From sequence record MZ501109: DNA of 64,000 nucleotides; one strand, 5' to 3'. Origin of the DNA: Escherichia phage TrudiRoth. The notes below the pieces were generated by a model. The model did not search any database, was not told the origin of the DNA, and saw only the letters and a list, made by a program, of their open reading frames with translations. Position numbers and translations under genes: made by a program. Below, one piece after another: positions 17,870-30,702 of this stretch. Each line of letters starts with the position of its first letter. Within the stretch, counting starts at the first letter, position 1.

Positions 17870-17895
17870 ATTTTATTAACTGCTAGGAAAATAAA

Positions 17896-18096
17896 GTGAA
17901 AACACGATATATAGTAAAAGTAGTAGGTGAACATTCACAAGTAAATACCACCGATGTTACAGCGCTAGCATTTGAAGTAGTCTCCGGTATAGTCATATTT
18001 CATAACGGAGATATCAAAGCTCCTGAATTTGCTGTGGATGCTAGCCTGTTTATTTCTGCAACTAAAGTAACTGTAGTAGCTAACTCTTCTAAATAA
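17896..18096 (+). CDS. hypothetical protein
   Basis: 66-aa ORF with GTG start after tRNA-Arg. Confidence 0.3.
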   Translation: MKTRYIVKVVGEHSQVNTTDVTALAFEVVSGIVIFHNGDIKAPEFAVDASLFISATKVTVVANSSK

Positions 18097-18107
18097 TAAG
18101 GAAATAT

Positions 18108-19052: not shown

Positions 19053-19075
19053 TAGTTACACGTAATCTTCGAACC

Positions 19076-19110
19076 AAGCCCGCGTTTCCTCTGAGAGCGC
19101 GGGCTTTTCT
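19076..19110 (+). terminator. rho-independent terminator after the SPFH gene
   Basis: 9-bp stem AAGCCCGCG/CGCGGGCUU then UUUU. Confidence 0.75.
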
Positions 19111-19255
19111 GTATTTAAGGCAAAAGAAAAGCCCATAAGTTATTCAACTAAGGTCTTTAGTATTTAATTCTTTAGAATCATATACTATTATTTCAGCAAC
19201 AACGTGCTGCCCTTAAGTGCCCTGCGATTTTCCTCTAAAAAGTTAAAAAATTCGA

Positions 19256-19284
19256 TTGCTTGAATGCTAAATTCTCTGTATAAT
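19256..19284 (+). promoter_or_regulatory. sigma70-type early promoter
   Basis: -35 TTGCTT, 17 bp, -10 TATAAT upstream of nadR. Confidence 0.65.
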
Positions 19285-19314
19285 ATATTTATAAATTTGA
19301 GAGAGGAATCAAAT

Positions 19315-20370: not shown

Positions 20371-20371
20371 T

Positions 20372-21049
20372 ATGACTAACTATCTCGTAAATGACTTTAA
20401 AAACTGGAAACCTCTGGAATATCTGTGGCTGTTCATAGCGGTTGTCTTCATTAGTTTAGCAAACTATAATGGTACAGCTCTAGATTGGGCTACTGCAATA
20501 ACCAATGTGGTTTGTGTTATTCTGGTTGCAAAAGGACGTGTTTCCAACTATATTTGGGGCTTAGTGGGTGTTCTTACATATGGTATTACAGCTTTAAACG
20601 CAGATCTTTATGGTAACGCTGCACTAAACCTGCTATACTACGTTCCTATGCAGTTTTATGGAATGTACTTATGGCATAAAAATAAGCCAAGTAATCTGCC
20701 GGATGTTCCAACTAAGGTTCTGACTAAAGCCCAAGCTCTGCTGACTCTAGGGATTCTAGCAGTAGCCACGTTAGGGTATGGTAGTTTCTTAGCTACTACG
20801 GCTGATCCATTTCCAATGTTGGATGCATTTACTGCGGTAGGTAGTGTGATCGCTATGTGGCTTATGGTTAAGCAGTATGCCGAGCAGTGGCTGATCTGGA
20901 TTGCTATTAACATTGGTACTGTGTACATTTGGCTTGTAACTGCTCAATCTACAGGTGCATCTTATGCAATCCTAGCAATGTGGCTAGTATTCTTAGGTAA
21001 CTCTATTATGGGAGCCTATAAAGGATACTTTGTACGCGTTAACAAATAA
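20372..21049 (+). CDS. pnuC: nicotinamide riboside transporter PnuC
   Basis: About 7 TM segments, PnuC-like WxxxY-rich profile; overlaps nadR stop; ORF opens at TTG 20357. Confidence 0.75.
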   Translation: MTNYLVNDFKNWKPLEYLWLFIAVVFISLANYNGTALDWATAITNVVCVILVAKGRVSNYIWGLVGVLTYGITALNADLYGNAALNLLYYVPMQFYGMYLWHKNKPSNLPDVPTKVLTKAQALLTLGILAVATLGYGSFLATTADPFPMLDAFTAVGSVIAMWLMVKQYAEQWLIWIAINIGTVYIWLVTAQSTGASYAILAMWLVFLGNSIMGAYKGYFVRVNK

Positions 21050-21058
21050 AGTAGTTAT

Positions 21059-21082
21059 AGCCCTCGCTTAGAGGGCTATTAT
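21059..21082 (+). terminator. terminator-like hairpin after pnuC
   Basis: AGCCCUC-GCUUA-GAGGGCU followed by AUUAUA. Confidence 0.5.
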
Positions 21083-21096
21083 ACAGAAATTTTCAC

Positions 21097-21125
21097 TTGC
21101 TTAATATAGAAAATTTCTGTATAAT
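21097..21125 (+). promoter_or_regulatory. sigma70-type early promoter
   Basis: -35 TTGCTT, 17 bp, -10 TATAAT. Confidence 0.65.
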
Positions 21126-21155
21126 ATATTTATAAATTTGAGAGAGGAATCAAAT

Positions 21156-21452
21156 ATGAAACGCATTGTACTTGCATTGACTCTAGTATCTACTTCTGTA
21201 TTTGCTGCTCCACAACAGGAACTTTGTCAAGTTCAAGTTTGTAATAAGCTAGAACGATTTACTCTAGACATTTGGTCACATATTAAAGATAATATGGGTG
21301 AACAGTGTTTTGATATTGTTCTGCCAAAAGAACAAGCTGTTCCTGGTGCTGTTCTCAGTTCAGAATCACGTTGGTGGCAGGGTTCTTCTATCAATCCAAC
21401 TAAGAAGTCAGTGACACGTATCAAACAAGTATATCAGTGCAATGTTCAGTAA
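21156..21452 (+). CDS. secreted small protein
   Basis: Signal peptide MKRIVLALTLVSTSVFAAP and six Cys. Confidence 0.5.
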   Translation: MKRIVLALTLVSTSVFAAPQQELCQVQVCNKLERFTLDIWSHIKDNMGEQCFDIVLPKEQAVPGAVLSSESRWWQGSSINPTKKSVTRIKQVYQCNVQ

Positions 21453-21460
21453 AATTTCAC

Positions 21461-21489
21461 TTGCTTAATGCCGAAATTTTCTGTATAAT
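21461..21489 (+). promoter_or_regulatory. sigma70-type early promoter (tRNA-Ser/tRNA-Met unit)
   Basis: -35 TTGCTT, 17 bp, -10 TATAAT directly upstream of the tRNA at 21504. Confidence 0.65.
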
Positions 21490-21503
21490 ATATTCATAAT
21501 TTC

Positions 21504-21597
21504 GGAAGATTAACCCTAAAGGTAAGGGAGCTGTTTGCTAAACAGCTAGTAGCTGTGGAAACACGGTGTGCCAGTTCGAGTCTGGCATCTTCCTCCA
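21504..21597 (+). tRNA. tRNA-Ser (anticodon GCU)
   Basis: Acceptor GGAAGAU/AUCUUCC, anticodon stem GCUGU/ACAGC with loop UUGCUAA, long variable arm, T-arm GCCAG-UUCGAGU-CUGGC, CCA. Confidence 0.75.
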
Positions 21598-21602
21598 AAT
21601 TT

Positions 21603-21680
21603 GGTTCTCAAGCTCATTTGGTATGAGCCGTCGCCTCATAAGCGAAAGGTAGGTAGGTTCGAATCCTCCGGGAGCCACCA
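21603..21680 (+). tRNA. tRNA-Met/Ile2 (anticodon CAU)
   Basis: D-stem GCUC/GAGC, anticodon loop CUCAUAA, T-loop UUCGAAU, CCA. Confidence 0.65.
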
Positions 21681-21697
21681 ATTAACTAGGAGACGAT

Positions 21698-21883
21698 ATG
21701 TCTAAGTTTCAGGAATTGAAGCAGGAACTAGAAGAGTGTGCCTGCCCAAAATGCTTCGGAGCAGGTGAATGGAACGATGCTGAACCTGGTGATACATGGT
21801 ATAATACATACGTTTGTACACATTGTAATGGTTCTGGTATTAATCCTGAATGCGGTATTTCTCTAGGTATTGAGCGAGGCTAA
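21698..21883 (+). CDS. zinc-ribbon protein
   Basis: 61 aa with CACPKC...CTHCNGSG. Confidence 0.45.
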   Translation: MSKFQELKQELEECACPKCFGAGEWNDAEPGDTWYNTYVCTHCNGSGINPECGISLGIERG

Positions 21884-22217
21884 GATGGATATTTACACTA
21901 CACCAGCAGTAAACCTGATTGGCTCTTGCCTTGTGCATTTCCGCTTCTTCCAAACGGATGATAGCAAAGAGGAGTATACCTATCCTCTGATGGATTTTCA
22001 GATTGAGGACTTCTTCCGTGAAGTGCGTAATATCTCTGAGAACTTCTATTATGGCATGGATAAGGAAGACTTTGACATTGAGTTCCCTATAATCTCTCGT
22101 TATTTCCTAGAGCAGTCCGACGCTCGGTTTGAGAAGATTGAACACATGGAAGTAGCCTGGGCTATCCAGTTCGAAATTACTGGCTTTGCTCGATACATTC
22201 AAGGTTACGAACTATGA
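21870..22217 (+). CDS. hypothetical protein
   Basis: 115-aa ORF overlapping the previous stop. Confidence 0.45.
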   Translation: MSEAKMDIYTTPAVNLIGSCLVHFRFFQTDDSKEEYTYPLMDFQIEDFFREVRNISENFYYGMDKEDFDIEFPIISRYFLEQSDARFEKIEHMEVAWAIQFEITGFARYIQGYEL

Positions 22218-22309
22218 AATTAAAAGATTATTATATTGGTTGGTTTGTAGGACTAATAGTAGGATTTTCACTGGGCTACAACTTGTATCAACTGATAAAC
22301 TGATTACAT

Positions 22310-22386
22310 GGGGGTGTAATCGAATTGGCATAGGTACTGGACTTAAAATTCAGGTTTTGTGGGTTCGAATCCCACCACCCCTACCA
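22310..22386 (+). tRNA. tRNA with anticodon UAA (Leu?), class I geometry
   Basis: Acceptor GGGGGUG/CACCCCU, anticodon stem CUGGA/UUCAG with loop CUUAAAA, T-arm GUGGG-UUCGAAU-CCCAC, A73, CCA; D-arm poorly paired. Confidence 0.45.
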
Positions 22387-22537
22387 AATTAAGGAAATAA
22401 AATGAAAGCTATTAAGAAAGCACTGCGTAAATTTATGTATTGTCGTTTTCATAGCATCAAGGCTTCAACTAATGGTACTACTTACGATCGCTATGATCCT
22501 AAGTTTGGCTTACATTCTAAATAACTGGAGAAAACAA

Positions 22538-22744
22538 ATGGCTAATCCTGAAATTACGGCACAACGCTTTATGCTGAAAGGAATTATTGCTGAAGCAGGC
22601 ATGACAGAAGAAGTTGCAGATTTTCAAAAGCAATTCCTCAATATTCTCACTCAAGCCAAAGAGCTAGGAGAGAAAGAACATGGCGCGGCTATTATGGCAA
22701 TCACATTGGTTGGGCTTGATCTGGCTGAAGAATCAGGAGTTTAA
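22538..22744 (+). CDS. hypothetical protein
   Basis: ORF opens at 22472; ATG 22538 has RBS GGAG. Confidence 0.4.
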   Translation: MANPEITAQRFMLKGIIAEAGMTEEVADFQKQFLNILTQAKELGEKEHGAAIMAITLVGLDLAEESGV

Positions 22745-22774
22745 CTCCTCCAAGCAGAAATTTTAAAAATGTAC

Positions 22775-22804
22775 TTGCTTTTTACTTAAGATTTCTGCTA
22801 TAAT
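22775..22804 (+). promoter_or_regulatory. sigma70-type early promoter
   Basis: -35 TTGCTT, 18 bp, -10 TATAAT. Confidence 0.6.
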
Positions 22805-22833
22805 AGTTATATAAGTTGATGAGAGGAATCAGA

Positions 22834-23100
22834 ATGTTAAAACGTTTTGCAGCAACTGGTATTGAAAGCTCAGTATGTAAATCCTGGGGTGGTTGGGAAG
22901 GTGAGATCGAGTGGCTTTATTTCTACAATGTAGAACTTCTTCCAGAGATCAAAGCTCAATGTATTGAGGCTGGTATGGCTCCTGATGCTACGGCTGATGT
23001 TGAAATCAGCATGAATAAGCTAGAGGGTCGAGTAGTCACTGTTACTGATGAAGGTGAAGAGGTATTCGAACTTCCATTCACTTTGAAAGTCACTCCTTAA
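22834..23100 (+). CDS. hypothetical protein
   Basis: 88 aa behind promoter 22775-22804 and the conserved leader GATGAGAGGAATCA. Confidence 0.5.
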   Translation: MLKRFAATGIESSVCKSWGGWEGEIEWLYFYNVELLPEIKAQCIEAGMAPDATADVEISMNKLEGRVVTVTDEGEEVFELPFTLKVTP

Positions 23101-23145
23101 TTTGATTAACTGATACAGCACTGAGCAAGTTCTTTAAAATTTGAC

Positions 23146-23174
23146 TTGCTCAGTCCTTCAAAACTTGATATAAT
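23146..23174 (+). promoter_or_regulatory. sigma70-type early promoter (tRNA cluster)
   Basis: -35 TTGCTC, 17 bp, -10 TATAAT; -35 lies inside a 10-bp inverted repeat. Confidence 0.55.
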
Positions 23175-23238
23175 AGTTATCTAATTTGGAAAACATATTT
23201 AAAAGTGTTTAAACTAGTATTTGAATATTTCTAAATAT

Positions 23239-23329
23239 GTTGGATTAGTATCGTAGAGGTAGCGAAGCAGACTGTAAATCTGCCGACTCGGAAGGGTCTC
23301 GGGTGGTTCGACTCCATCATCCAACACCA
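23239..23329 (+). tRNA. tRNA-Tyr (anticodon GUA)
   Basis: Acceptor GUUGGAU/AUCCAAC, anticodon stem GCAGA/UCUGC with loop CUGUAAA, long variable arm, CCA. Confidence 0.75.
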
Positions 23330-23336
23330 AATTTAA

Positions 23337-23413
23337 GTCCTGTTAGACAAACTGGTAAAGTCACTACCCTTTCAAGGTAGGATTTGCGGGTTCGATCCCC
23401 GCACAGGACGCCA
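23337..23413 (+). tRNA. tRNA-Glu (anticodon UUC)
   Basis: Acceptor GUCCUGU/ACAGGAC, anticodon stem CUACC/GGUAG with loop CUUUCAA, T-arm GCGGG-UUCGAUC-CCCGC, CCA. Confidence 0.75.
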
Positions 23414-23421
23414 ATTTCTGC

Positions 23422-23498
23422 ATTCCTAGAGTGTTACTGGACAGCATGTCGGTCTCCAAAACCGTACGGTCTAGGTTCGAGTCCTAGTAGGTTTGCCA
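23422..23498 (+). tRNA. tRNA-like, anticodon CCA (Trp?), poorly paired
   Basis: T-arm CUAGG-UUCGAGU-CCUAG and CCA end are good; anticodon loop CUCCAAA; acceptor and D stems have mismatches. Confidence 0.3.
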
Positions 23499-23504
23499 AT
23501 ATTT

Positions 23505-23579
23505 GCACCTTTAGCTGAGATGGATTAGCGCTTGCCTGAAGAGCTTGAGAGGTTCGTTCGATACGAACAGGGTGCACCA
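23505..23579 (+). tRNA. tRNA-like, anticodon GAA (Phe?)
   Basis: Acceptor GCACCUU/AGGGUGC, T-arm GUUCG-UUCGAUA-CGAAC, CCA; anticodon loop CUGAAGA with two U-U mismatches in the stem. Confidence 0.4.
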
Positions 23580-23596
23580 ATTTGAAGGAGATGCTG

Positions 23597-23869
23597 ATGC
23601 ATCCTGAAAACTTCTTTATTTACTGTGCGGATAAGTCACTGAAACGCAGAATTAACAAAGTCTATCATTATCGTGCTAGTCAACAGCCTTATGTTTATGC
23701 TTTTGATGGAGATTACATCCCACTAGAACAGTTGGCCTGTGATTACATGGTTTTGAAGAACTTTGACGAGACAAAGATCTCAAGCGTTCATAATCGACAG
23801 AACCCGTTAACGTGGAAATATAAGAAGAAAAAGAAAGGCATCAAATTCTTAAAAAATGTAGTTGCTTAA
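23597..23869 (+). CDS. hypothetical protein
   Basis: RBS GAAGGAG then ATG 23597; ORF opens at 23582. Confidence 0.45.
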   Translation: MHPENFFIYCADKSLKRRINKVYHYRASQQPYVYAFDGDYIPLEQLACDYMVLKNFDETKISSVHNRQNPLTWKYKKKKKGIKFLKNVVA

Positions 23870-23890
23870 CCGCTTAAAGTTCTGTATAAT
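23862..23890 (+). promoter_or_regulatory. sigma70-type early promoter
   Basis: -35 TTGCTT, 17 bp, -10 TATAAT. Confidence 0.65.
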
Positions 23891-23919
23891 TATTACATAA
23901 ATTGAACTGGAGAAGCAAC

Positions 23920-24144
23920 ATGACAGAACAAGAATTGAAAGAACGTAAGCTGGTAATGCTTCGCTTACTAAACATTTTCTCTGGTATGGATGGTGGTATT
24001 GACTTCATTCAACTACGCACTTTTGTAGAAGAAGCAGAAGGCGAGGCTATCACTAGGATTCTTAAACATATGGGTTTGTTACTAGATGCTGCTAATGTGG
24101 CTACTCAATATAAACTCGAAGATTTACCGGAGCGTGTTAAATGA
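23920..24144 (+). CDS. hypothetical protein
   Basis: ATG 23920 behind promoter 23862-23890. Confidence 0.45.
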   Translation: MTEQELKERKLVMLRLLNIFSGMDGGIDFIQLRTFVEEAEGEAITRILKHMGLLLDAANVATQYKLEDLPERVK

Positions 24145-24332
24145 AAATGTTAGTTAAATTTAAGTGTTGTGGTTCTGAACATATTTTCACTCGTTATAGA
24201 GAGTTTAAGATGTGTGAGTGCGGTAAATCAGGCTACGATGCTGGAGATGGCTATTATGCTAGATCTATAGGACATTCTAAAGATCTAGAGTTTACTAATC
24301 TCGAAAAGCAAGATAAATCGACCGTTGGCTGA
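24141..24332 (+). CDS. zinc-ribbon protein
   Basis: 63 aa with CCGSEH...CECG; its stop overlaps the 5' end of a tRNA. Confidence 0.4.
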   Translation: MKMLVKFKCCGSEHIFTRYREFKMCECGKSGYDAGDGYYARSIGHSKDLEFTNLEKQDKSTVG

Positions 24333-24394
24333 ATGGCTTAGGCGGAGGCCTGCAAAACCTCCTTATGTGAGTTCGAATCTCATGCGGTCGTCCA
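24319..24394 (+). tRNA. tRNA-Cys (anticodon GCA)
   Basis: Acceptor CGACCGU/GCGGUCG, anticodon loop CUGCAAA, T-arm GUGAG-UUCGAAU-CUCAU, CCA; 5' end overlaps the stop of ORF 24141..24332. Confidence 0.5.
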
Positions 24395-24401
24395 AATTTT
24401 A

Positions 24402-24484
24402 GGGTCGTTAGCCAAGCGGTTTGGCGGTGGACTGTTAATCCATGTCGAAAGACAACGTAGGTTCGAATCCTACACGGCCCGCCA
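24402..24484 (+). tRNA. tRNA-Asn (anticodon GUU) with 13-nt variable region
   Basis: Acceptor GGGUCGU/ACGGCCC, D-stem GCCA/UGGC, anticodon loop CUGUUAA, variable GUCGAAAGACAAC, T-arm GUAGG-UUCGAAU-CCUAC, CCA. Confidence 0.5.
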
Positions 24485-24587
24485 TATTCTGTGTAGAGTT
24501 AAGTAAACCGGTAGCCAACCAGCTATCATTGCTGATATCGAATTCAGTCACAGATACCATTTTTCATTAACAACTGAGGAAATAGAT

Positions 24588-24773
24588 ATGACAACTCGTG
24601 CAATTGCTCGACTAGAAGCTGATCGTGATAATCTGATTAATAATATTAAGGTTCGTGGTAATATTATTAAGGCTCTGAAAGCTGAACTTCTTGAAGAACT
24701 TCAAGGTCAAGTAGAGCGTCGTGAAGCTCTAAAAGAGGTTGAGGAAGCTATCGAAAAACTCAAAACTGAGTAA
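24588..24773 (+). CDS. hypothetical coiled-coil protein
   Basis: 61-aa ORF. Confidence 0.4.
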   Translation: MTTRAIARLEADRDNLINNIKVRGNIIKALKAELLEELQGQVERREALKEVEEAIEKLKTE

Positions 24774-24776
24774 ATT

Positions 24777-25358
24777 ATGCACGGAATATCCTTACCCATT
24801 CCAGGGTTTGAGGAGTACTTAGTAAGTTTGGATGGGTTAGTATTTAGTATCAAATCAAACAAAATACTAACCCAAATAACCAGTAATTACGGATACTTAT
24901 CTATACGTCTCCATAAAAATGGTCAACAGAGAAATACCGGTGTACATAGGATTTTAGCATGTGCATTTAAGAAATTACCAAGTCTAGACTCTGAACTAGA
25001 AGTTGACCATATTAACACAGACATTACTTATTGGGGTCTTAATAACTTACAAGTGCTCACAAAAGAGCAGCATCTAGAAAAGACTTTAAAAGATAAAGGA
25101 TTTAGTAAACTAAACCATGATAATTGTTGTAAGGATTGTGGTAAAGCTATTTCTTTAAAAGCTGAAAAATGTCAGGAGTGCTCTTCACATAAACCAAAAG
25201 ATATCTCTATAACTAAAGAAATAATCGAGGTTACAGTAAGAGAGCTAGGCTGGTCAGGTGCAGGGAGAAAGTTAAGTTATTCAGATAATGGGTTGCGTAA
25301 AAGATACACTTCTTTAGGAGGCAATCCTAAAGAACTTAAAAAGTTAAAGGTACTATAG
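24777..25358 (+). CDS. HNH homing endonuclease (second family)
   Basis: N-terminal GFEEYLVSLDGLVFS, HNH core HRILACAF...VDHINTD...NL and C-terminal Cys cluster; sits inside the tRNA array. Confidence 0.65.
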   Translation: MHGISLPIPGFEEYLVSLDGLVFSIKSNKILTQITSNYGYLSIRLHKNGQQRNTGVHRILACAFKKLPSLDSELEVDHINTDITYWGLNNLQVLTKEQHLEKTLKDKGFSKLNHDNCCKDCGKAISLKAEKCQECSSHKPKDISITKEIIEVTVRELGWSGAGRKLSYSDNGLRKRYTSLGGNPKELKKLKVL

Positions 25359-25423
25359 TCTAACGGTTAGGATACTCCCCTGTCACGGGAGAGGTAGGGT
25401 TTCGATTACCCTTAGTACCGCCA
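25349..25423 (+). tRNA. tRNA-Asp (anticodon GUC)
   Basis: Acceptor GGUACUA/UAGUACC, anticodon stem CUCCC/GGGAG with loop CUGUCAC, T-arm AGGGU-UUCGAUU-ACCCU, CCA; 5' end overlaps the HNH gene stop. Confidence 0.75.
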
Positions 25424-25429
25424 AATTAT

Positions 25430-25506
25430 ACATCCATAGCTCAATTGGTTAGAGCTACCGCCTCTTAAGCGGTAGGTTCTAGGTTCAAGTCCTAGTGGGT
25501 GTACCA
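25430..25506 (+). tRNA. tRNA-Lys (anticodon CUU)
   Basis: Acceptor ACAUCCA/UGGGUGU, D-stem GCUC/GAGC, anticodon stem ACCGC/GCGGU with loop CUCUUAA, T-arm CUAGG-UUCAAGU-CCUAG, CCA. Confidence 0.75.
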
Positions 25507-25719
25507 AACATCAGAGCAGCGTGATGTACTGCAAAGACCCAAAGTCCGGGGTGGACTTCTTGATTCAAAGGAGCAGGCACTAATTATCATTCTAGCGTGG
25601 TGGAGAGGGGACACCAGCTTGCCGAGGGTAGAAGCTCGTTCGATTCGAGTGAAAGAATGGTTCTCGTAAATCCGCACAAGTGATAGCAGGTTCAAGTCCT
25701 GCCTAGATTGACTTATTAT

Positions 25720-25793
25720 GCGTTCGTAGTTAAAAGGTATAATTTTTGGTTGCCAACCAGAAGTTGAGGGTTCGATTCCCTCCGACCGCACCA
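25720..25793 (+). tRNA. tRNA-Gly (anticodon GCC)
   Basis: Acceptor GCGUUCG/CGACCGC (one mismatch), D-stem GUUA/UAAU, anticodon loop UUGCCAA, T-arm GAGGG-UUCGAUU-CCCUC, CCA. Confidence 0.7.
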
Positions 25794-26102
25794 AATCTAT
25801 CAAACCAAGCCTGCGCATTCGTGTAACAACTTGTGCGTCTGTAAGGTGATAGTAAACAAGCCACGGAGTTCCGGCCGTTCAACGTGGTAAAATCTTCTGA
25901 ATAACAGGTCGTGGATACCTCTTTGGAGGCTCAACGGAAACGCAGGAGTGTAAGTAAACGAAAGTTTACTTATTATGTAGGTTCCGATAGATCGGCGGGT
26001 CTATTCTGGCATTTAAGAGAAGTCTCGCAAACTTCTTTGTCAGCCGTGGGGTTGGTAGCCTCCAGGTGGCCTACACAATAAGTAAATTTATTAAAAATTA
26101 AT

Positions 26103-26131
26103 TTGCTATTCTGCTTAATTATCTGTATAAT
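26103..26131 (+). promoter_or_regulatory. sigma70-type early promoter
   Basis: -35 TTGCTA, 17 bp, -10 TATAAT. Confidence 0.6.
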
Positions 26132-26165
26132 ATATTTTATAAAGTGAATAGAAGGAAGTTAACAA

Positions 26166-26405
26166 ATGAAAAAATATTCAGAAGAATTTCTAGAAGATAT
26201 GGATTTACATTACCTGTTAACTTTGGTTTTAGAAGAAAAAATCTATGACCAATTTGATCTAGAAGGTCTTACAAAAGTAGATTGTATTCGTGCCCTTCTC
26301 ACTGTTGAAACTCGCTATTTCGAATGTCAACAGTGTGGTGAAGTTAATGAGTGCTCTTGGGAATGTCCAGAGTGTGGATATGACGATCTGCTTGAAACAG
26401 AATAA
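26166..26405 (+). CDS. zinc-ribbon protein
   Basis: 79 aa with CQQCG...CPECG; flanked by two near-identical tRNA-Lys(CUU) cores. Confidence 0.5.
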   Translation: MKKYSEEFLEDMDLHYLLTLVLEEKIYDQFDLEGLTKVDCIRALLTVETRYFECQQCGEVNECSWECPECGYDDLLETE

Positions 26406-26408
26406 TAT

Positions 26409-26485
26409 CTCCGATTAGCTCAATTGGTTAGAGCTACCGCCTCTTAAGCGGTAGGTTCTAGGTTCAAGTCCTTCATTGGAGACCA
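26409..26485 (+). tRNA. tRNA-Lys (anticodon CUU)-like second copy with degenerate T-stem
   Basis: 58-nt core identical to the tRNA at 25430-25506, but T-stem 3' strand is CCUUC (3 bp only) and the acceptor differs; CCA present. Confidence 0.45.
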
Positions 26486-26491
26486 AACAAT

Positions 26492-26569
26492 TGCGGGTTA
26501 GATCTTTGGTAGAGATCGCTAGTCTCATAAGCTAGAAAGAGGTAGGTTCGATTCCTGCACCCGCTTCCA
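26492..26569 (+). tRNA. tRNA-Met/Ile2 (anticodon CAU), unpaired 1-72
   Basis: D-stem GAUC/GAUC, anticodon stem CUAGU/GCUAG with loop CUCAUAA, T-arm GUAGG-UUCGAUU-CCUGC, U1-U72 mismatch, CCA. Confidence 0.65.
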
Positions 26570-26590
26570 ATTTAATAGAAGGATTTCGAA

Positions 26591-26755
26591 ATGAAATTAT
26601 TTCGTTTAAAAGTAAGTGATTTACGTTCTAGCAAAGATCGTAAGAAGTATCCACTAGCCCATTACGGTAAAGATGAAAACGAAGTGATGGCGGAATTTGG
26701 TATTAATCACCCTTACTTAAAAGTTTATTCTATTAAGGAAGTCTATGCTAATTAA
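26591..26755 (+). CDS. small hypothetical protein
   Basis: 54-aa ORF (below the track cutoff) translated by hand; RBS AAGGA. Confidence 0.3.
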   Translation: MKLFRLKVSDLRSSKDRKKYPLAHYGKDENEVMAEFGINHPYLKVYSIKEVYAN

Positions 26756-27218
26756 TAAAGTTTTAGCTGCCTTAAACCTTCCTGATAACTTCATTATAGA
26801 TGATAAGCTCATAAGAGCTTATATGAGCAAATATAACGAAATTTCAGGTAAAGAAGGTAAGTTAAAAACTTCAGAGTTTAGATTCTGTTATCGAATGGCA
26901 GCCTTAAATCTCTTAAAATATAAAAGGGAGCATAAAATACCTATAACGGAAGGTTTTGTATATGTAATTGGTAATCCAGCATGGCCAGGCATGTATAAAA
27001 TAGGTATGACTATAGATGTGAATGAGAGGTTAACAAGTTATCAAACTTATTCACCTAATAGAGACTACAAGCTATACCATTTCAGATTTTCGTCGGATAA
27101 AAGACGTACAGAGAAAGAATTACATAATCTTCTTAAAGATTATAGAGTATCTGGAGAATGGTTTGAAGTACCTGTACTAGATGCTTTTAAATTATTAGTA
27201 GAAAAATTGGATTGCTAG
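26745..27218 (+). CDS. T5orf172-domain (GIY-YIG superfamily) protein
   Basis: GFVYVIGNPAWPGMYKIGMTIDVNERL matches the GIY..YIG..R pattern. Confidence 0.65.
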   Translation: MLINKVLAALNLPDNFIIDDKLIRAYMSKYNEISGKEGKLKTSEFRFCYRMAALNLLKYKREHKIPITEGFVYVIGNPAWPGMYKIGMTIDVNERLTSYQTYSPNRDYKLYHFRFSSDKRRTEKELHNLLKDYRVSGEWFEVPVLDAFKLLVEKLDC

Positions 27219-27286
27219 CTCAACTGGATAAGAGTAGCGGACCTTTAATCCGTCAGTTCTGGGTTCGAATCCCAGGCAATCCACCA
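27209..27286 (+). tRNA. tRNA-Lys (anticodon UUU) with C at position 33
   Basis: Acceptor GGAUUGC/GCAAUCC, anticodon stem GCGGA/UCCGU with loop CCUUUAA, T-arm CUGGG-UUCGAAU-CCCAG, CCA; 5' end overlaps the T5orf172 gene stop. Confidence 0.7.
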
Positions 27287-27290
27287 AATT

Positions 27291-27364
27291 GCTCGGTTAG
27301 TTTAATGGGAGAACCCCGTCTTTACACGGCGGTTGCGATAGTTCGATTCTATCACCGAGTACCA
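27291..27364 (+). tRNA. tRNA-Val (anticodon UAC)
   Basis: Acceptor GCUCGGU/ACCGAGU, D-stem GUUU/GAAC, anticodon stem CCGUC/GGCGG with loop UUUACAC, T-arm GAUAG-UUCGAUU-CUAUC, CCA. Confidence 0.75.
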
Positions 27365-27382
27365 CTCAACTAAAATAAGGAA

Positions 27383-27625
27383 TTGCAAATGCAATTATCA
27401 TCTAAAGTTCAAGGTTTCTTCGCACATGCAACAGCAGAATTTGCTATTAGCAAGGGTTGGGATTTTGAGCAAGAACTTTCTGAGTTCTATAAAGATATAG
27501 ATATGAATACGCCATACATGGGACTCTCCACTGGTCAAGAGATCACAGAAGGCGATGTGTTCAAGGCAAGTCAAGGTGAGGTAACACCTAGTTTTGCCGC
27601 TTTTTTGGAGTGGCTTCACAATTAA
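27383..27625 (+). CDS. hypothetical protein
   Basis: 80-aa ORF with RBS AAGGAA. Confidence 0.45.
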   Translation: MQMQLSSKVQGFFAHATAEFAISKGWDFEQELSEFYKDIDMNTPYMGLSTGQEITEGDVFKASQGEVTPSFAAFLEWLHN

Positions 27626-27734
27626 AGAAGAAGCTCCAGATGATGATGTATTTATGCAAAGCATGCACTCTGGGAGTTCTGATATGTTATTTGTTAAAGA
27701 TGTACGACATATCCAAGAAGTGGTAAAAACGCAG

Positions 27735-27763
27735 TTGCTTAATGCTTAATTTCTTGTTATAAT
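27735..27763 (+). promoter_or_regulatory. sigma70-type early promoter driving an ORF-free leader
   Basis: -35 TTGCTT, 17 bp, -10 TATAAT; about 320 nt without an ORF before the next tRNA. Confidence 0.6.
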
Positions 27764-28097
27764 ATTTATATAAATTGATGCGAAAATAGCTGCCTAGATA
27801 CCAGGTGTATGACGTCTACACTAGCAGAGCTACCGAAAAAGAGATCCTCAGGATAAACGTCGTAGCAAAATTAGTCTGGTATCCATTAATTTAGTTCACT
27901 AAGGTATTAGCTCGACCTAGGACTGGCTGCCAAAAAGCACGATCCCTACGATTTGGGAGAAGTTCTAGATTAGTCCACTAGATTCAGCGGCAACTGAATA
28001 GTGTATCGGGTTTGTGAAGAGCAGCTATTCTCTACTGGCTAATGTCTGAGGTTAGTACGCACACCGAGCTAATAGCCTTAGTAAACTTAAAGAATTT

Positions 28098-28173
28098 GGG
28101 CGAATAGTGTCAGCGGGAGCACACCAGACTTGCAAGTCTGGTAGGGAGGGTTCGAGTCTCTCTTTGTCCACCA
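28098..28173 (+). tRNA. tRNA, isotype unresolved (Ala-UGC or Cys-GCA)
   Basis: Acceptor GGGCGAA/UUUGUCC, D-stem GUGU/ACAC, T-arm GAGGG-UUCGAGU-CUCUC, CCA; perfect anticodon stem CAGAC/GUCUG encloses only 6 nt (UUGCAA). Confidence 0.45.
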
Positions 28174-28188
28174 AATTAAAAAGAATGC

Positions 28189-28265
28189 GCGCGATTGACG
28201 GAATAGGTATACGTGTCAGCCTTAGAAGTTGAATTTTGAGGGTTCGAATCCCTTGTCGCGCACCA
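28189..28265 (+). tRNA. tRNA with anticodon UAG (Leu?), class I geometry
   Basis: Acceptor GCGCGAU/GUCGCGC, anticodon stem UCAGC/GUUGA with loop CUUAGAA, 5-nt variable loop, T-arm GAGGG-UUCGAAU-CCCUU, A73, CCA. Confidence 0.5.
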
Positions 28266-28390
28266 AATTTGATGGTCAGAGTAAATTAAACCTACTATCT
28301 CGGTTGAGCTGTTTTAATGGATTCGAATCCCAGCGAGGCGTAACTGCCTGGCGTGATAGAGGCATCATTCCACTAACATTGGAAAAACTA

Positions 28391-28621
28391 ATGAAACGAA
28401 AATTAAAAAAGTCTTATATAATTAAGATAAATAAGCTACGAAGTAGGGCAAAAGGATGGCCACTTCGAATATTAATTGCGGATAACCATATTAGATACCA
28501 TGCGGAACAACATCATTACAAACAGTGGGAGTCATACTGTCGCTCAAAAGCAGGTCGTTTAGATGGATCTTATGAGCTTCTATTTGGTAAGAAGCCTACT
28601 AGATTAGCTTTAGGTAAGTAA
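28391..28621 (+). CDS. small basic protein
   Basis: First in-frame ATG of track ORF 28229..28621; the upstream part overlaps a tRNA. Confidence 0.35.
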   Translation: MKRKLKKSYIIKINKLRSRAKGWPLRILIADNHIRYHAEQHHYKQWESYCRSKAGRLDGSYELLFGKKPTRLALGK

Positions 28622-28626
28622 TACTT

Positions 28627-28720
28627 GGAAAAGCAAATAGACTGGCGACTAAACCCGATTGGAAATCGGTTGAGTAATAGCAATATTGCCTTATGGGTTC
28701 AACTCCCATCTTTTCCGCCA
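28627..28720 (+). tRNA. tRNA-Ser (anticodon GGA)
   Basis: Acceptor GGAAAAG/CUUUUCC, anticodon loop UUGGAAA, long variable arm with GCAAUAUUGC hairpin, T-arm AUGGG-UUCAACU-CCCAU, G73, CCA. Confidence 0.7.
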
Positions 28721-28735
28721 AATATTGGAGTATAG

Positions 28736-29251
28736 ATGCTAACACAACAAGAATTAAAATCCGTGTTGTTATATAAACCAGATACTGGAGAGTTTTTCTG
28801 GAAATATAGATCTGATTTAGATAGTCAATGGAATAGTAAATATGCTGGAACTAGGGCAGGATTTATTAATGAACTAGGCTATTGGAAGATAACTCTAGGA
28901 AATACTAGCTGGTTAGCACATCGTCTAGCATTCTTATACATGACTGGGGAAATACCAGATCTAATTGACCACAAGGATCAAGATAAGTCCAATACTAAAT
29001 GGGATAACTTACGAATAGCCACTGTATCACAGAATCAGGCTAATGCTAAATTAAGGGTAGATAATACCTCTGGGTACAAAAATGTAACTTGGCATAAGCA
29101 AAGAAATAAGTGGAAAGTAGAAGTACGTAAAGATGGCAAACTCCATTATGGTGGACTTTTTACAGAACTAGATAAAGCTGTAAATAAAGCTAATAATCTT
29201 AGACGTGAGTTATTCGGGGAATTTGCAGTATATGAAGAGTTTATGGGGTAG
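28736..29251 (+). CDS. HNH homing endonuclease with AP2-like domain
   Basis: Shares AHRLAFLYMTGE, DHKDQDK, NLR and GYKNV motifs with 6460, 39902 and 42058. Confidence 0.7.
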   Translation: MLTQQELKSVLLYKPDTGEFFWKYRSDLDSQWNSKYAGTRAGFINELGYWKITLGNTSWLAHRLAFLYMTGEIPDLIDHKDQDKSNTKWDNLRIATVSQNQANAKLRVDNTSGYKNVTWHKQRNKWKVEVRKDGKLHYGGLFTELDKAVNKANNLRRELFGEFAVYEEFMG

Positions 29252-29341
29252 GTCAATCCAACGGCTGGCGCTGGACTCCGACTTGAAATCGGTTGATCGT
29301 AGTGATACGGTGTAAGGGTTCGATCCCCTTACCTACCTCCA
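29247..29341 (+). tRNA. tRNA-Ser (anticodon UGA)
   Basis: Acceptor GGUAGGU/ACCUACC, anticodon loop CUUGAAA, long variable arm, T-arm AAGGG-UUCGAUC-CCCUU, CCA; 5' end overlaps the HNH gene stop. Confidence 0.7.
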
Positions 29342-29361
29342 ATTAACTATAAGGAATCCTT

Positions 29362-29535
29362 ATGAGCAAAACAGCTACTGTAACAATGAAGGATGGTACA
29401 AAATTTAAAGCATGTCTTCATGAAACAGATAATGGATGGAAGGCTTATTTGCCACACCTAGATTCCACTGGGTATGGAATGACCCAACGTGAAGCTATTG
29501 TTGATGCTTTAAATGAGGCTTCCGCTGGTTTATAA
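29362..29535 (+). CDS. small hypothetical protein
   Basis: 57-aa ORF translated by hand; RBS AAGGAA. Confidence 0.35.
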   Translation: MSKTATVTMKDGTKFKACLHETDNGWKAYLPHLDSTGYGMTQREAIVDALNEASAGL

Positions 29536-29794
29536 AAATTCTTGGAATATGCCGGAATTGGTAGACGGGACTGCCGAATAGGTTTACTAGGAACATCCAC
29601 TCCTAGAAATATACCTTAAAAGCGGTTGAGTTAAATGGTATAACTCATGAAGGTTCAAGTCCTTCTATTCCTTGATACATCAATGGCTCAAAGTGTAACG
29701 GTGCTATTTGATGCTCTTGGCAAGACTTCCCCGACATGCGTTCGGGAGTAAGCTGCTAAGACTAGAGTAGAAGAGTTTCAACAAGACAACGATA

Positions 29795-29869
29795 GCTCTT
29801 AAAGCATTGCTGGCGATGCAGTTGCCTTGTAAGCATCTGAACCGGGTTCGATTCCTAGTGGGAGCACCA
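29795..29869 (+). tRNA. tRNA-Thr (anticodon UGU)
   Basis: Acceptor GCUCUUA/UGGGAGC (two G-U pairs), D-stem GCAU/AUGC, anticodon loop CUUGUAA, T-loop UUCGAUU, CCA. Confidence 0.65.
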
Positions 29870-29885
29870 AAATTAAAAAATTCAT

Positions 29886-29914
29886 TTGCCTTCTCTCTTA
29901 TTTCTTGTTATTAT
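29886..29914 (+). promoter_or_regulatory. sigma70-type early promoter
   Basis: -35 TTGCCT, 17 bp, -10 TATTAT. Confidence 0.5.
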
Positions 29915-29944
29915 ATTTATATAAATTAATGAGAGGGAAACCAA

Positions 29945-30238
29945 ATGAAACGTTATCTTTCTGTTATGTTCCAAACTGGTGGTCAACGCTATACTTATGA
30001 ATTTCCATCTTCTTGGAAGATCAAAGAAGGTGATCAAGTAGTAGTGTTAACACCGCGTGATGGTTTCAAGGTAGTAACGGTTAAGCAAGTATTTCCAAAA
30101 GATCACGAACCATCTAAGGCTATTCAGTACAAGATGATTCATGGTCTGGTACGAAAAGTACCTAGAACAGAAGTCGAAGTAGATAAAACTGGGGAAGCTA
30201 AATACCAGTATACCTCTTACTTAGACGAGTTGTTATAA
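29945..30238 (+). CDS. hypothetical protein
   Basis: 97 aa behind promoter 29886-29914. Confidence 0.5.
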   Translation: MKRYLSVMFQTGGQRYTYEFPSSWKIKEGDQVVVLTPRDGFKVVTVKQVFPKDHEPSKAIQYKMIHGLVRKVPRTEVEVDKTGEAKYQYTSYLDELL

Positions 30239-30444
30239 TGGGAATTACTTTCACAGAAAAGATTATGGGCAATGGTGTTATGATCATTACCGCATGGGAT
30301 GGTAATCAGTGGTGTAGTGTTTCAGGTATTAAGCCTGAAGAACAAACACTAGAAAATATCTCAAAGATTAAGCGAAGAATGGCAGAACGTGCACGACTTC
30401 CAGGTGCGCCTAGAAATGGTAAACGTTCTGCAATTAAATGTTAA
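30238..30444 (+). CDS. hypothetical protein
   Basis: 68 aa, start-coupled. Confidence 0.45.
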   Translation: MGITFTEKIMGNGVMIITAWDGNQWCSVSGIKPEEQTLENISKIKRRMAERARLPGAPRNGKRSAIKC

Positions 30445-30445
30445 T

Positions 30446-30522
30446 GCTTCGGTAGCTTAGCGATCTAAAGCACTCGGCTGATAACCGAGAGATCGGGGGT
30501 TTAAATCCCTCCCGGAGTACCA
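30446..30522 (+). tRNA. tRNA-Ile (anticodon GAU) with UUUAAAU T-loop
   Basis: Acceptor GCUUCGG/CCGGAGU, D-stem GCUU/AAGC, anticodon stem CUCGG/CCGAG with loop CUGAUAA, T-arm GGGGG-UUUAAAU-CCCUC, CCA. Confidence 0.7.
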
Positions 30523-30558
30523 AATTTAGGAAGTAAGACTATGCGTCCAGGAAAGTTT

Positions 30559-30572
30559 AAAAAAAAAAAAAA
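30559..30572 (+). repeat. A14 homopolymer tract
   Basis: 14 consecutive A between tRNA-Ile and the third CAU tRNA, inside a 15-codon ORF (MRPGKFKKKKKLIGL). Confidence 0.9.
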
Positions 30573-30626
30573 GCTAATTGGTCTAAAGAGTATAAAGAAT
30601 ATTTACTTAGTCTAGTAAAACATAAT

Positions 30627-30702
30627 AGTTAGTTGGCAGAGTGGTTATGCACCTCCTTCATACGGAGCGACTACAGTGGTTCAAATCCACTACTAACTAC
30701 CA
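30627..30702 (+). tRNA. tRNA-Met/Ile2 (anticodon CAU)
   Basis: Acceptor AGUUAGU/ACUAACU, anticodon loop UUCAUAC, T-arm AGUGG-UUCAAAU-CCACU, CCA. Confidence 0.7.

What the first reader, a model, noticed from the sequence alone, without database searches (positions are those of the whole stretch)
25430..26485. Two tRNA-Lys(CUU) genes with an identical 58-nt core flanking a zinc-ribbon ORF, the second with a degraded T-stem
The tRNAs at 25430-25506 and 26409-26485 share the D-arm, anticodon arm and T-loop exactly but differ in acceptor stem, and the second has a T-stem 3' strand (CCUUC) that pairs at only 3 of 5 positions. Between them lie tRNA-Gly, ORF-free sequence and the ORF 26166..26405. 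This suggests duplication with divergence, for example a decoy or nuclease-resistant isoform, or a pseudogene left by a recombination event.
Basis: seen in the sequence. Interest (0 to 1): 0.45.

Follow-up and report, generated by a model that had tools for sequence, protein, structure and literature searches.

The report
Proline tRNA gene overwritten by lysine tRNA
In this T5-like phage the gene that relatives use for proline tRNA has had its middle replaced by a copy of the phage's own lysine tRNA(CUU), leaving a hybrid with a mismatched T-stem and no proline tRNA; it is a neat but one-off recombination scar.

Summary
Two tRNA-Lys(CUU) calls sit at 25430-25506 and 26409-26485. They share an exact 57-nt core (not 58), and the second has two non-standard T-stem pairs, as both ARAGORN and Infernal show.

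The interpretation needs changing. The window is a T5-like phage (Epseptimavirus). In all nine relatives examined, the slot after the 79-aa ORF and before the next tRNA-Met holds tRNA-Pro(UGG). At the 36 sites that separate the window's Lys(CUU) from the 1Sgal2PP-type tRNA-Pro, the second gene reads Pro x7, Lys x21, Pro x8, with no exceptions.

It is therefore a tRNA-Pro gene whose interior (39-57 nt) was overwritten by the phage's own Lys(CUU) gene 979 nt upstream. The crossovers lie in 12-nt and 6-nt microhomologies. The 3' crossover falls inside the T-arm, which creates the C·C and U·U mismatches.

The junction is absent from GenBank phages, IMG/VR, JGI metagenomes and GTDB genomes. The phage has no tRNA-Pro in the window.

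Inferred, not shown: the hybrid would be charged with lysine and is impaired or decaying. The event probably followed homing-endonuclease-type breakage, because F-TflIII-like HNH and T5orf172 genes flank these tRNAs. No evidence supports a decoy or nuclease-resistant isoform.

The parts
25430..25506 (+). Intact tRNA-Lys(CUU), the donor of the conversion patch. The identical donor segment is 25437-25493.
   Evidence: ARAGORN. Rfam tRNA 69.6 bits with all pairs standard. 100% identical to the gene in Shin27, bux and Wa28.
26409..26485 (+). Hybrid tRNA gene: a tRNA-Pro(UGG) locus with a Lys(CUU) interior. The anticodon CTT is at 26443-26445, followed by discriminator A and an encoded CCA.
   Evidence: ARAGORN Lys(ctt). 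Rfam 55.5 bits with two non-standard T-stem pairs. Mosaic Pro7/Lys21/Pro8 at 36 diagnostic sites.
26409..26415 (+). Pro-derived 5' acceptor strand CTCCGAT.
   Evidence: Identical to tRNA-Pro of 1Sgal2PP and BSP22A at 7 of 7 diagnostic sites.
26416..26427 (+). 5' crossover zone: 12-nt identity TAGCTCAATTGG shared by the Pro and Lys genes.
   Evidence: Alignment A1 and the diagnostic-site string.
26428..26466 (+). Minimal conversion tract of 39 nt, with all 21 Lys-specific sites. It covers the D-loop end, D-stem 3' strand, anticodon arm, variable loop, T-stem 5' strand and part of the T-loop.
   Evidence: It carries the window's own Lys allele (GGTAGG), not the 1Sgal2PP/BSP22A allele (GGAGGG).
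26467..26472 (+). 3' crossover zone: 6-nt identity AGTCCT (end of T-loop plus first 3 nt of the T-stem 3' strand).
26473..26485 (+). Pro-derived end: the last two T-stem bases TC (which mismatch C26458 and T26459), the acceptor 3' strand ATTGGAG, and ACCA.
   Evidence: 8 of 8 diagnostic sites are Pro-type. 'vv' marks in the Infernal alignment.
26166..26405 (+). 79-aa CxxC...CxxC ORF of unknown function. It is an optional cassette in the slot between promoter P13a and the tRNA-Pro locus.
   Evidence: ORF list. 99% identical to 1Sgal2PP/BSP22A and absent from Shin27, bux and Wa28. In phage 5 the same slot holds hegB/F-TflIII. Not homologous to hegB. Only one related cluster in 5.8 billion proteins. 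No family above threshold.
26103..26131 (+). Sigma-70-type promoter TTGCTA-17-TATAAT, equal to P13a of phage 5. It probably drives the ORF, the hybrid tRNA and the following tRNA-Met.
   Evidence: Consensus scan, 10 of 12 matches. Aligns with the annotated P13a in AJ604531.
25588..25717 (+). Homologue of RNA2, annotated as 'tRNA-like RNA with unknown functions'. It has a T-arm (GCAGG TTCAAGT CCTGC) and an acceptor-like stem.
   Evidence: Matches the rna2 feature of AJ604531. T-arm covariation among relatives. No Rfam family.
25720..25793 (+). tRNA-Gly(GCC).
   Evidence: ARAGORN. Rfam 61.1 bits.
25975..26077 (+). Homologue of RNAIV, annotated as 'stable RNA with unknown functions'.
   Evidence: Alignment to AJ604531 5465-5567. 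Compensatory changes in its hairpins. No Rfam family.
26492..26569 (+). tRNA-Met, annotated as initiator tRNA-fMet in phage 5. It is the conserved downstream neighbour of the tRNA-Pro locus.
24777..25358 (+). NUMOD4 + HNH endonuclease ORF, a paralogue of F-TflIII. Its 3' end overlaps tRNA-Asp (25349-25423), just upstream of the donor Lys(CUU).
   Evidence: Pfam NUMOD4 at E 3.5e-5; HNH_3 below threshold. PHROG HNH endonuclease at E 8.5e-22. 39% identity to phage 5 hegB at E 3e-34.
26745..27218 (+). T5orf172/MUG113-domain ORF (a family often annotated as homing-endonuclease-like). Its 3' end overlaps tRNA-Lys(UUU) at 27209-27286.
   Evidence: Pfam MUG113 at E 3.4e-18 and T5orf172 at E 6.5e-15. 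Weaker PHROG matches to families labelled endonuclease or homing endonuclease.

Best explanation
The gene at 26409-26485 is the phage's tRNA-Pro(UGG) gene after a short ectopic gene conversion. A patch of 39-57 nt was copied from the resident tRNA-Lys(CUU) gene, 979 nt upstream on the same strand, and replaced everything between the 5' acceptor strand and the middle of the T-arm. The exchange points lie in the only stretches the two genes share: TAGCTCAATTGG (D-arm) and AGTCCT (T-loop and stem). Because the 3' exchange point lies inside the T-arm, a Lys-type T-stem 5' strand (CUAGG) now faces a Pro-type 3' strand (CCUUC). This gives C·C and U·U at the two outer pairs.

Shown: the mosaic, its donor, the syntenic Pro locus, the absence of any tRNA-Pro in the window, and its uniqueness.

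Inferred: (1) The event is recent, because the tract is 100% identical to the donor allele and the mismatches are uncompensated. (2) It arose by repair of a break or nick, or by a double template switch, in a region riddled with homing-endonuclease-type genes. (3) If the RNA matures, LysRS would charge it, because LysRS reads the anticodon and A73 and both are present. It would then read AAG as lysine, so no miscoding is expected. (4) The weakened acceptor/T-arm helix, which is the part contacted by RNase P, the CCA enzymes and EF-Tu, makes it a poorer tRNA than the donor. In effect it is a redundant, probably decaying second Lys(CUU), gained at the cost of tRNA-Pro.
For: Relatives carry tRNA-Pro at this exact slot, after the ORF or P13a and before tRNA-Met: 1Sgal2PP, BSP22A, bux, Shin27, Wa28 and phage 5 by annotation. 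ARAGORN finds Pro(tgg) in 8 of 8 related tRNA regions and none in the window.

The mosaic is perfect. Of 36 sites where Lys1 and 1Sgal2PP tRNA-Pro differ, the hybrid reads P x7, L x21, P x8 with no exceptions (alignment). The flanks match the Pro locus of 1Sgal2PP/BSP22A at about 99%.

The patch carries the window's own (Shin27-type) Lys allele rather than the allele found in the genomes that supplied the ORF-Pro module. The conversion therefore happened in, or while forming, this mosaic genome.

The 57-nt shared run compares with a maximum of 18 nt in about 2,800 same-genome tRNA pairs. The Lys(CUU) core occurs once per genome in all 24 GenBank phage records that have it.

Infernal marks two non-standard T-stem pairs and the score drops 14 bits. 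The cloverleaf is 4.3 kcal/mol less stable than the donor's.

Endonuclease context: an F-TflIII paralogue lies next to the donor. F-TflIII itself sits directly upstream of tRNA-Pro in phage 5. A T5orf172 ORF lies downstream. Segments of 100-500 nt around the locus come from at least three lineages. There is a precedent for a phage homing endonuclease cutting inside a tRNA gene and starting conversion: T4 SegB (PMC2330249).

Anticodon-dependent identity is consistent with notes in AJ604531, which say that T5-group tRNA-Pro and tRNA-Lys do not become amber suppressors when given a CUA anticodon.
Against: Only one sequence exists, and no reads are available. A consensus or polishing artefact cannot be formally excluded.

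No expression, processing or charging data exist.

The hybrid still scores 55.5 bits, mid-range among the 23 tRNAs of this array, so it may be more functional than 'decaying' implies.

The endonuclease or break-repair origin is circumstantial, because no cleavage site is known here.

Thermodynamic prediction is uninformative about T-arm formation. Even the intact Lys(CUU) is predicted to prefer an extended hairpin over the cloverleaf.
Confidence: 0.78

Rival explanations
1. Adaptive remodelling. The conversion was selected because a second Lys(CUU) gene under promoter P13a raises the supply of phage lysine tRNA, for example when hosts deplete tRNA-Lys with PARIS/AriB or PrrC-type nucleases. 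The Pro-type acceptor stem may add resistance or altered handling.
For: T5 tRNAs, including tRNA-Lys(UUU), are shown to counter the PARIS tRNA nuclease (PMC11464382 and PMC12409363). The hybrid keeps a promoter, an intact acceptor stem, A73 and CCA. AAG makes up 34% of Lys codons in the window's ORFs.
Against: It is a singleton in every collection searched. The T-stem mismatches are uncompensated. The anticodon stem-loop is identical to the donor's, so resistance to anticodon nucleases is unchanged. The phage loses tRNA-Pro(UGG) although CCA and CCT together are 77% of its Pro codons.
Confidence: 0.08
2. Assembly, polishing or library artefact. The real genome has a normal tRNA-Pro, and Lys(CUU) sequence was written into the consensus.
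For: It is a singleton. The same genome has another odd tRNA with a 1-nt insertion in the anticodon loop at 28098-28173.
Against: It would need two switches within 57 nt, at identities of only 12 and 6 nt. Those are far below assembler k-mer sizes and read-mapping tolerance (21 mismatches in 39 nt). Long ORFs across the window are intact, so the sequence is not indel-ridden. The flanks are clean.
Confidence: 0.07
3. A duplicated Lys(CUU) gene diverged in its acceptor stem and T-stem, possibly toward a decoy.
For: Two genes with the same anticodon and an identical core.
Against: All 15 'diverged' positions match the tRNA-Pro allele of 1Sgal2PP/BSP22A exactly. The locus is syntenic with tRNA-Pro. 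Point divergence confined to both ends, with zero change in 57 nt, is not credible.
Confidence: 0.01
4. Miscoding hybrid. ProRS recognises the Pro-type acceptor stem (C1-G72, A73), so the tRNA inserts proline at AAG codons.
For: The acceptor stem and discriminator are entirely Pro-type.
Against: Established knowledge: E. coli ProRS depends strongly on G35 and G36, which are absent here, and LysRS depends on U35, U36 and A73, which are present. The record notes that T5-group tRNA-Pro with a CUA anticodon does not suppress amber, which fits an anticodon requirement.
Confidence: 0.02

Closest known systems
tRNA gene remoulding / alloacceptor ('anticodon') switching
   Same: A tRNA gene at a fixed locus changes the codon family it serves while keeping part of its old body. 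The phenomenon is documented across genomes and in experimental evolution (for example PMC3868979, listed).
   Different: Described cases mostly involve point changes in the anticodon of a duplicate. Here a 39-57-nt patch from a non-cognate paralogue replaced the D-arm, anticodon arm and half of the T-arm in one step. It destroyed the only Pro gene and left a structural defect. I did not find a description of this in a phage tRNA array (one search found nothing), but the search was limited.
Homing-endonuclease-driven gene conversion in phage tRNA clusters (T4 SegB; T5 F-TflI/II/III/IV)
   Same: The tRNA cluster is interspersed with free-standing endonuclease genes. T4 SegB cuts inside a tRNA gene of a co-infecting phage and triggers conversion of the region (PMC2330249). 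The window has an F-TflIII paralogue and a T5orf172 ORF abutting tRNA genes. In phage 5, F-TflIII sits next to tRNA-Pro.
   Different: Homing is allelic, between co-infecting genomes, and copies the endonuclease gene. Here the donor is a non-allelic paralogue, the tract is tiny, and no endonuclease gene was transferred. No cleavage site has been mapped, so the link is inferred.
Phage tRNAs that replace host tRNAs cut by defence nucleases (T5 tRNA-Lys(UUU), Thr, Asn against PARIS/AriB)
   Same: Same phage group and same amino acid family (PMC11464382, PMC12409363).
   Different: Those tRNAs differ from host tRNAs in the region the nuclease recognises, and they are conserved. The hybrid's anticodon arm is identical to an existing phage tRNA, and the hybrid is not conserved.
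tRNA pseudogenes and degenerate tRNAs in phage arrays
   Same: Weakened stem, redundancy with an intact copy, and no conservation.
   Different: It still passes the Rfam tRNA threshold by 26 bits and keeps a promoter, acceptor stem and CCA. 'Pseudogene' is therefore a prediction, not a finding.

Membership tests
tRNA (Rfam RF00005) | Score at or above the curated gathering threshold (29 bits) over the full model. | tested here: met
   55.5 bits, model positions 1-71. ARAGORN also calls it.
tRNA (Rfam RF00005) | Four fully paired cloverleaf stems, including a 5-bp T-stem. | tested here: not met
   The acceptor, D and anticodon stems are intact. The T-stem has 3 standard pairs plus C·C and U·U.
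tRNA-Lys(CUU) isoacceptor | Anticodon CUU in a 7-nt loop plus discriminator A73, the LysRS identity set (established knowledge). | tested here: met
   Loop CUCUUAA, anticodon at 26443-26445, A before CCA.
tRNA-Lys(CUU) isoacceptor | Aminoacylation with lysine and decoding of AAG. | not testable with these tools
   Needs in vitro charging or tRNA-seq.
tRNA-Pro(UGG) of T5-like phages (positional orthologue) | Position between P13a (with or without a cassette) and tRNA-fMet, with Pro-type acceptor stem sequence. | tested here: met
   Synteny in 6 annotated relatives. 15 of 15 end positions are Pro-type.
tRNA-Pro(UGG) of T5-like phages (positional orthologue) | Anticodon UGG and Pro-type anticodon arm. 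| tested here: not met
   Anticodon CUU. All 21 interior diagnostic sites are Lys-type.
Ectopic gene-conversion tract | Contiguous block identical to a paralogous donor in the same genome, bounded by recipient-type sequence, with the donor unchanged. | tested here: met
   P7/L21/P8 mosaic. The donor at 25430-25506 is intact and identical to relatives.
Ectopic gene-conversion tract | Exchange points in stretches of donor-recipient identity. | tested here: met
   12-nt and 6-nt identities at 26416-26427 and 26467-26472.
Homing-endonuclease-initiated event | Endonuclease genes adjacent to the loci. | tested here: met
   HNH/NUMOD4 ORF at 24777-25358, an F-TflIII paralogue. T5orf172 ORF at 26745-27218. 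F-TflIII lies beside tRNA-Pro in phage 5.
Homing-endonuclease-initiated event | A mapped cleavage or nick site in or next to the converted tRNA gene. | not testable with these tools
   Requires enzyme assays. The F-Tfl target sites were not available in the searchable literature.
Counter-defence phage tRNA | Sequence difference from the targeted tRNA in the nuclease recognition region, and conservation among phages. | tested here: not met
   The anticodon arm is identical to the resident Lys(CUU). The hybrid is found nowhere else.

The most novel reading that the evidence does not exclude
tRNA arrays of T5-like phages may change their decoding repertoire in single steps. Endonuclease-induced breaks in one tRNA gene would be repaired from a non-cognate neighbour through the universally conserved D-arm and T-arm microhomologies. 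The hybrid here would then be a functional, expressed extra Lys(CUU) caught just after such a switch, possibly favoured on hosts that attack lysine tRNA.
Probability: 0.1. Interest if true: 0.6.

Novelty: new variant of a known kind. Interest (0 to 1): 0.4.

Why it matters
The hybrid shows, with base-level resolution, that a phage tRNA array can lose one specificity and double another in one short recombination event between non-cognate tRNA genes. The event used the conserved D-arm and T-arm motifs as microhomology.

This is a different route of tRNA repertoire change from the gain or loss of whole genes, or anticodon point mutation, that is usually discussed. It ties repertoire change to the endonuclease-rich, mosaic nature of these regions.

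There are two practical consequences. Annotation pipelines will count this phage as having two Lys(CUU) genes and will miss that tRNA-Pro was lost. And the hybrid is a natural test construct (Pro acceptor stem, Lys body, weakened T-stem) for LysRS/ProRS identity rules and tRNA quality control.

As a single, unconserved instance, its biological weight is modest.

Tried and rejected
1. Other copies of the hybrid. I ran megablast of the locus against 50,697 GenBank phage records; the best full-length hits were tRNA-Pro loci at 91.3%. Exact junction patterns found nothing in IMG/VR, JGI metagenomes or GTDB genomes.

2. Second copies of the Lys(CUU) core elsewhere. 24 records hold it, each exactly once.

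3. Independent contigs found through the neighbouring 79-aa ORF. The exact protein is not on record. A homology search returned one cluster only.

4. Whether the 79-aa ORF is a remnant of the F-TflIII gene that occupies the same slot in phage 5. There is no similarity. Pfam and PHROG gave nothing above threshold.

5. Analogous hybrids in other T5-like genomes. None was found in 8 related tRNA regions; the longest shared run was 18 nt. The IMG/VR locus search gave only 5 loci, so the survey is small.

6. Rfam families for the ORF-free stretches. None matched at E<=1. They were identified instead through the AJ604531 annotation.

7. Thermodynamic folding as a test of T-arm formation. This was uninformative, because even the intact Lys(CUU) is predicted to prefer an extended hairpin.

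8. Literature on chimeric tRNAs arising by gene conversion in phages. No paper held all the search terms. F-Tfl target sites were not retrievable.
Full report
**What the window is.** BLAST of the region and of two larger stretches places the window in the T5-like phages (Demerecviridae, Markadamsvirinae, Epseptimavirus). The closest record in the tRNA region is E. coli phage Shin27, at 98.1% over 84% of 16 kb. Other parts of the window reach only about 92% to any record, so the phage itself is not in the collection. ARAGORN finds 23 tRNA genes, all on the + strand, between 17795 and 30702. None of them is tRNA-Pro.

**Checking the observation.**
- Both tRNA-Lys(CUU) genes are called at exactly the stated coordinates.
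- Both pass the Rfam tRNA model, at 69.6 and 55.5 bits.
- They are identical over linear positions 8-64. They differ at all seven acceptor pairs.
- Infernal's alignment of the second gene marks two non-standard pairs at the outer end of the T-stem. These are C26458·C26474 and T26459·T26473, leaving three standard pairs.
- Chance is excluded. In the window plus eight related tRNA regions, about 2,800 same-genome tRNA pairs share exact runs of at most 18 nt, against 57 nt here.

**What it is.**
- In annotated relatives the order is tRNA-Asp, tRNA-Lys(CUU), tRNA-Gly, (optional ORF), tRNA-Pro, tRNA-Met. ARAGORN finds Pro(tgg) in all eight related regions.
- Aligning the window's two genes with the Lys and Pro genes of three relatives shows that the second 'Lys' gene has the ends of tRNA-Pro and the interior of tRNA-Lys.
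- Quantitatively, the window's first Lys gene and the 1Sgal2PP tRNA-Pro differ at 36 positions. The second gene reads Pro at the first 7, Lys at the next 21 and Pro at the last 8, with no exceptions and no private changes.
- The exchange points must lie within TAGCTCAATTGG (26416-26427) and AGTCCT (26467-26472). These are the only stretches the two parents share there.
- The tract is thus 39-57 nt long.
- The 3' exchange point is inside the T-arm. A Lys-type 5' strand therefore faces a Pro-type 3' strand at the last two pairs, which fully explains the 'degraded' T-stem.

**Timing and setting.** A six-genome alignment shows the surrounding DNA is a patchwork:
- 25300-25793 is identical to Shin27, bux and Wa28.
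- 25794-25960 is a different variant, seen in YZU-L1 and bastian.
- The RNAIV and promoter stretch is of the phage 5 type.
- The 79-aa ORF and the Pro-derived ends are of the 1Sgal2PP/BSP22A type (about 99%).
- The ORF at 26745-27218 is again Shin27-type.

The Lys patch carries the window's own Shin27-type allele (GGTAGG), not the allele of the genomes that carry the ORF-Pro module (GGAGGG). The conversion therefore occurred in this mosaic genome or while it formed. Complete identity to the donor and the lack of compensating changes argue that it is recent.

**Uniqueness.** No GenBank phage record has the hybrid. Full-length matches are tRNA-Pro loci at 91.3%. The Lys(CUU) core occurs in only 24 records, always once. 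The junction is absent from IMG/VR, JGI metagenomes and GTDB genomes.

**The rest of the interval.** The 'ORF-free' DNA is not featureless.
- The curated GenBank record AJ604531 (phage 5 tRNA region) annotates stable RNAs here.
- RNA2, a 'tRNA-like RNA with unknown functions', aligns to about 25588-25717.
- RNAIV aligns to about 25975-26077.
- Promoter P13a aligns to about 26083-26158. A TTGCTA-17-TATAAT match lies at 26103-26131.
- Both RNAs show compensatory changes among relatives. Neither has an Rfam family.
- In phage 5, the slot between P13a and tRNA-Pro holds hegB, the HNH endonuclease F-TflIII. In the window it holds the unrelated 79-aa CxxC ORF. In Shin27 and bux it is empty. The site immediately 5' of tRNA-Pro is thus a recurrent insertion point.
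- The ORF at 24777-25358 abuts tRNA-Asp just upstream of the donor Lys gene. It has a NUMOD4 motif and PHROG HNH matches, and it is 39% identical to F-TflIII.
- The ORF at 26745-27218 has MUG113/T5orf172 domains and abuts tRNA-Lys(UUU).

**How it most likely arose (inferred).** A break or nick in or beside tRNA-Pro was repaired from the nearby Lys(CUU) gene through microhomology. Alternatively, a nascent strand switched templates twice. The setting is suggestive. Homing-type endonuclease genes sit against tRNA genes here, and in T4 the SegB endonuclease cuts within a tRNA gene of a co-infecting phage and triggers conversion of the region (PMC2330249). No cleavage site is known for this locus, so this step remains circumstantial.

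**What the product probably does (inferred).**
- By established identity rules, LysRS relies on the anticodon (especially U35) and A73, and ProRS relies on G35/G36 plus G72/A73. The hybrid has CUU and A73, so it should accept lysine and read AAG correctly. No miscoding is expected.
- Notes in AJ604531 fit anticodon-dependent identity. They say that T5-group tRNA-Pro and tRNA-Lys given a CUA anticodon do not become amber suppressors.
- The two lost pairs sit where the T-stem stacks on the acceptor stem. RNase P, the CCA enzymes and EF-Tu bind this helix.
- The cloverleaf is 4.3 kcal/mol less stable than the donor's, and the model score is 14 bits lower.
- I therefore expect a poorer, redundant Lys(CUU), in effect a scar on its way to decay.
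- Caveats: 55.5 bits is mid-range for this array. Energy models also cannot judge the T-arm here, since they misfold even the intact Lys(CUU).
- The cost is the loss of tRNA-Pro(UGG). CCA and CCT make up 77% of proline codons in 63 window ORFs. Host tRNA-Pro presumably covers this.

**Rivals.**
- An adaptive second lysine tRNA is conceivable, given that T5 tRNAs counter the PARIS nuclease (PMC11464382, PMC12409363). However, the anticodon arm is unchanged, the mismatches are uncompensated and the hybrid is a singleton.
- An assembly artefact would need two switches at 12-nt and 6-nt identities, and the window's long ORFs are intact. Still, only reads can exclude it.
- Duplication with divergence is refuted by the mosaic.

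**Verdict.** The feature is an ectopic conversion of tRNA-Pro by tRNA-Lys(CUU). It is a new variant of known tRNA remoulding and gene conversion, and it is of moderate interest.

Noticed in passing
window 28098-28173 (+): A tRNA-Ala(UGC)-like gene has an 8-nt anticodon loop; ARAGORN reports anticodon 'tgca', type '?(Ala|Cys)'. Compared with its orthologue in IMG/VR locus L010 (10534-10608) it has a 1-nt G insertion right after CTTGCAA, and it also differs at two other positions. It could be a second damaged tRNA in this genome, a frameshift-type tRNA, or a sequencing indel.
   Followed up: partly
window 25588-25717 (+): Homologue of 'RNA2, tRNA-like RNA with unknown functions' from GenBank AJ604531. 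It has an acceptor-like stem (TCTAG/CTAGA) and a T-arm that covaries among relatives (GCAGG/CCTGC, GTAGG/CCTAC, ACAGG/CCTGT). About 500 phage records match the 25507-25719 query; most of them cover only the RNA2 part. It has no Rfam family.
   Followed up: partly
window 25975-26077 (+): Homologue of 'RNAIV, stable RNA with unknown functions' (AJ604531). It is predicted to form a multi-hairpin structure closed by a long terminal stem. One hairpin is wholly replaced by different but still pairing sequences in different lineages. It has no Rfam family.
   Followed up: partly
window 17795-30702 compared with Shin27 locus L005: The window has 23 tRNA genes against 29 in its closest relative. Besides Pro, it lacks His, Arg(ACG), Gln(CUG), Gln(UUG), Gly(UCC) and one of two Ala genes. 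Weak tRNA-like Rfam hits not called by ARAGORN lie at 29247-29337 (tRNA-Sec model, 38.3 bits) and 29605-29673 (23.9 bits).
   Followed up: no
window 24777-25358 and 26745-27218 (+): Two endonuclease-type ORFs each end about 10 nt inside the following tRNA gene: an F-TflIII paralogue into tRNA-Asp and a T5orf172/MUG113 ORF into tRNA-Lys(UUU). hegB overlaps tRNA-Pro in the same way in phage 5. tRNA processing would cut these mRNAs at or near their stop codons.
   Followed up: partly
locus L001 (Salmonella phage 1Sgal2PP), roughly 1990-2100: An extra insert of about 107 nt directly after tRNA-Gly, absent from the window and the other four relatives. It has tRNA-like ends (GGAGAAG...CTCTCCA) and a T-arm (GCAGG TTCGACT CCTGT). 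It is unannotated in the record.
   Followed up: no
window 25430-25506 and 26409-26485: Both Lys(CUU) sequences are predicted to fold most stably into a 13-bp extended hairpin (D-stem 3' strand + anticodon arm + variable loop + T-stem 5' strand) rather than a cloverleaf: -27.0 against -22.9 kcal/mol for the intact gene.
   Followed up: no
window 25794-25960 (+): The segment downstream of tRNA-Gly differs from Shin27, bux, Wa28, 1Sgal2PP and BSP22A. It matches Citrobacter phage YZU-L1 and Salmonella phages bastian and PMBT27 at 93-95%. This is a further recombination module within the finding's interval.
   Followed up: no
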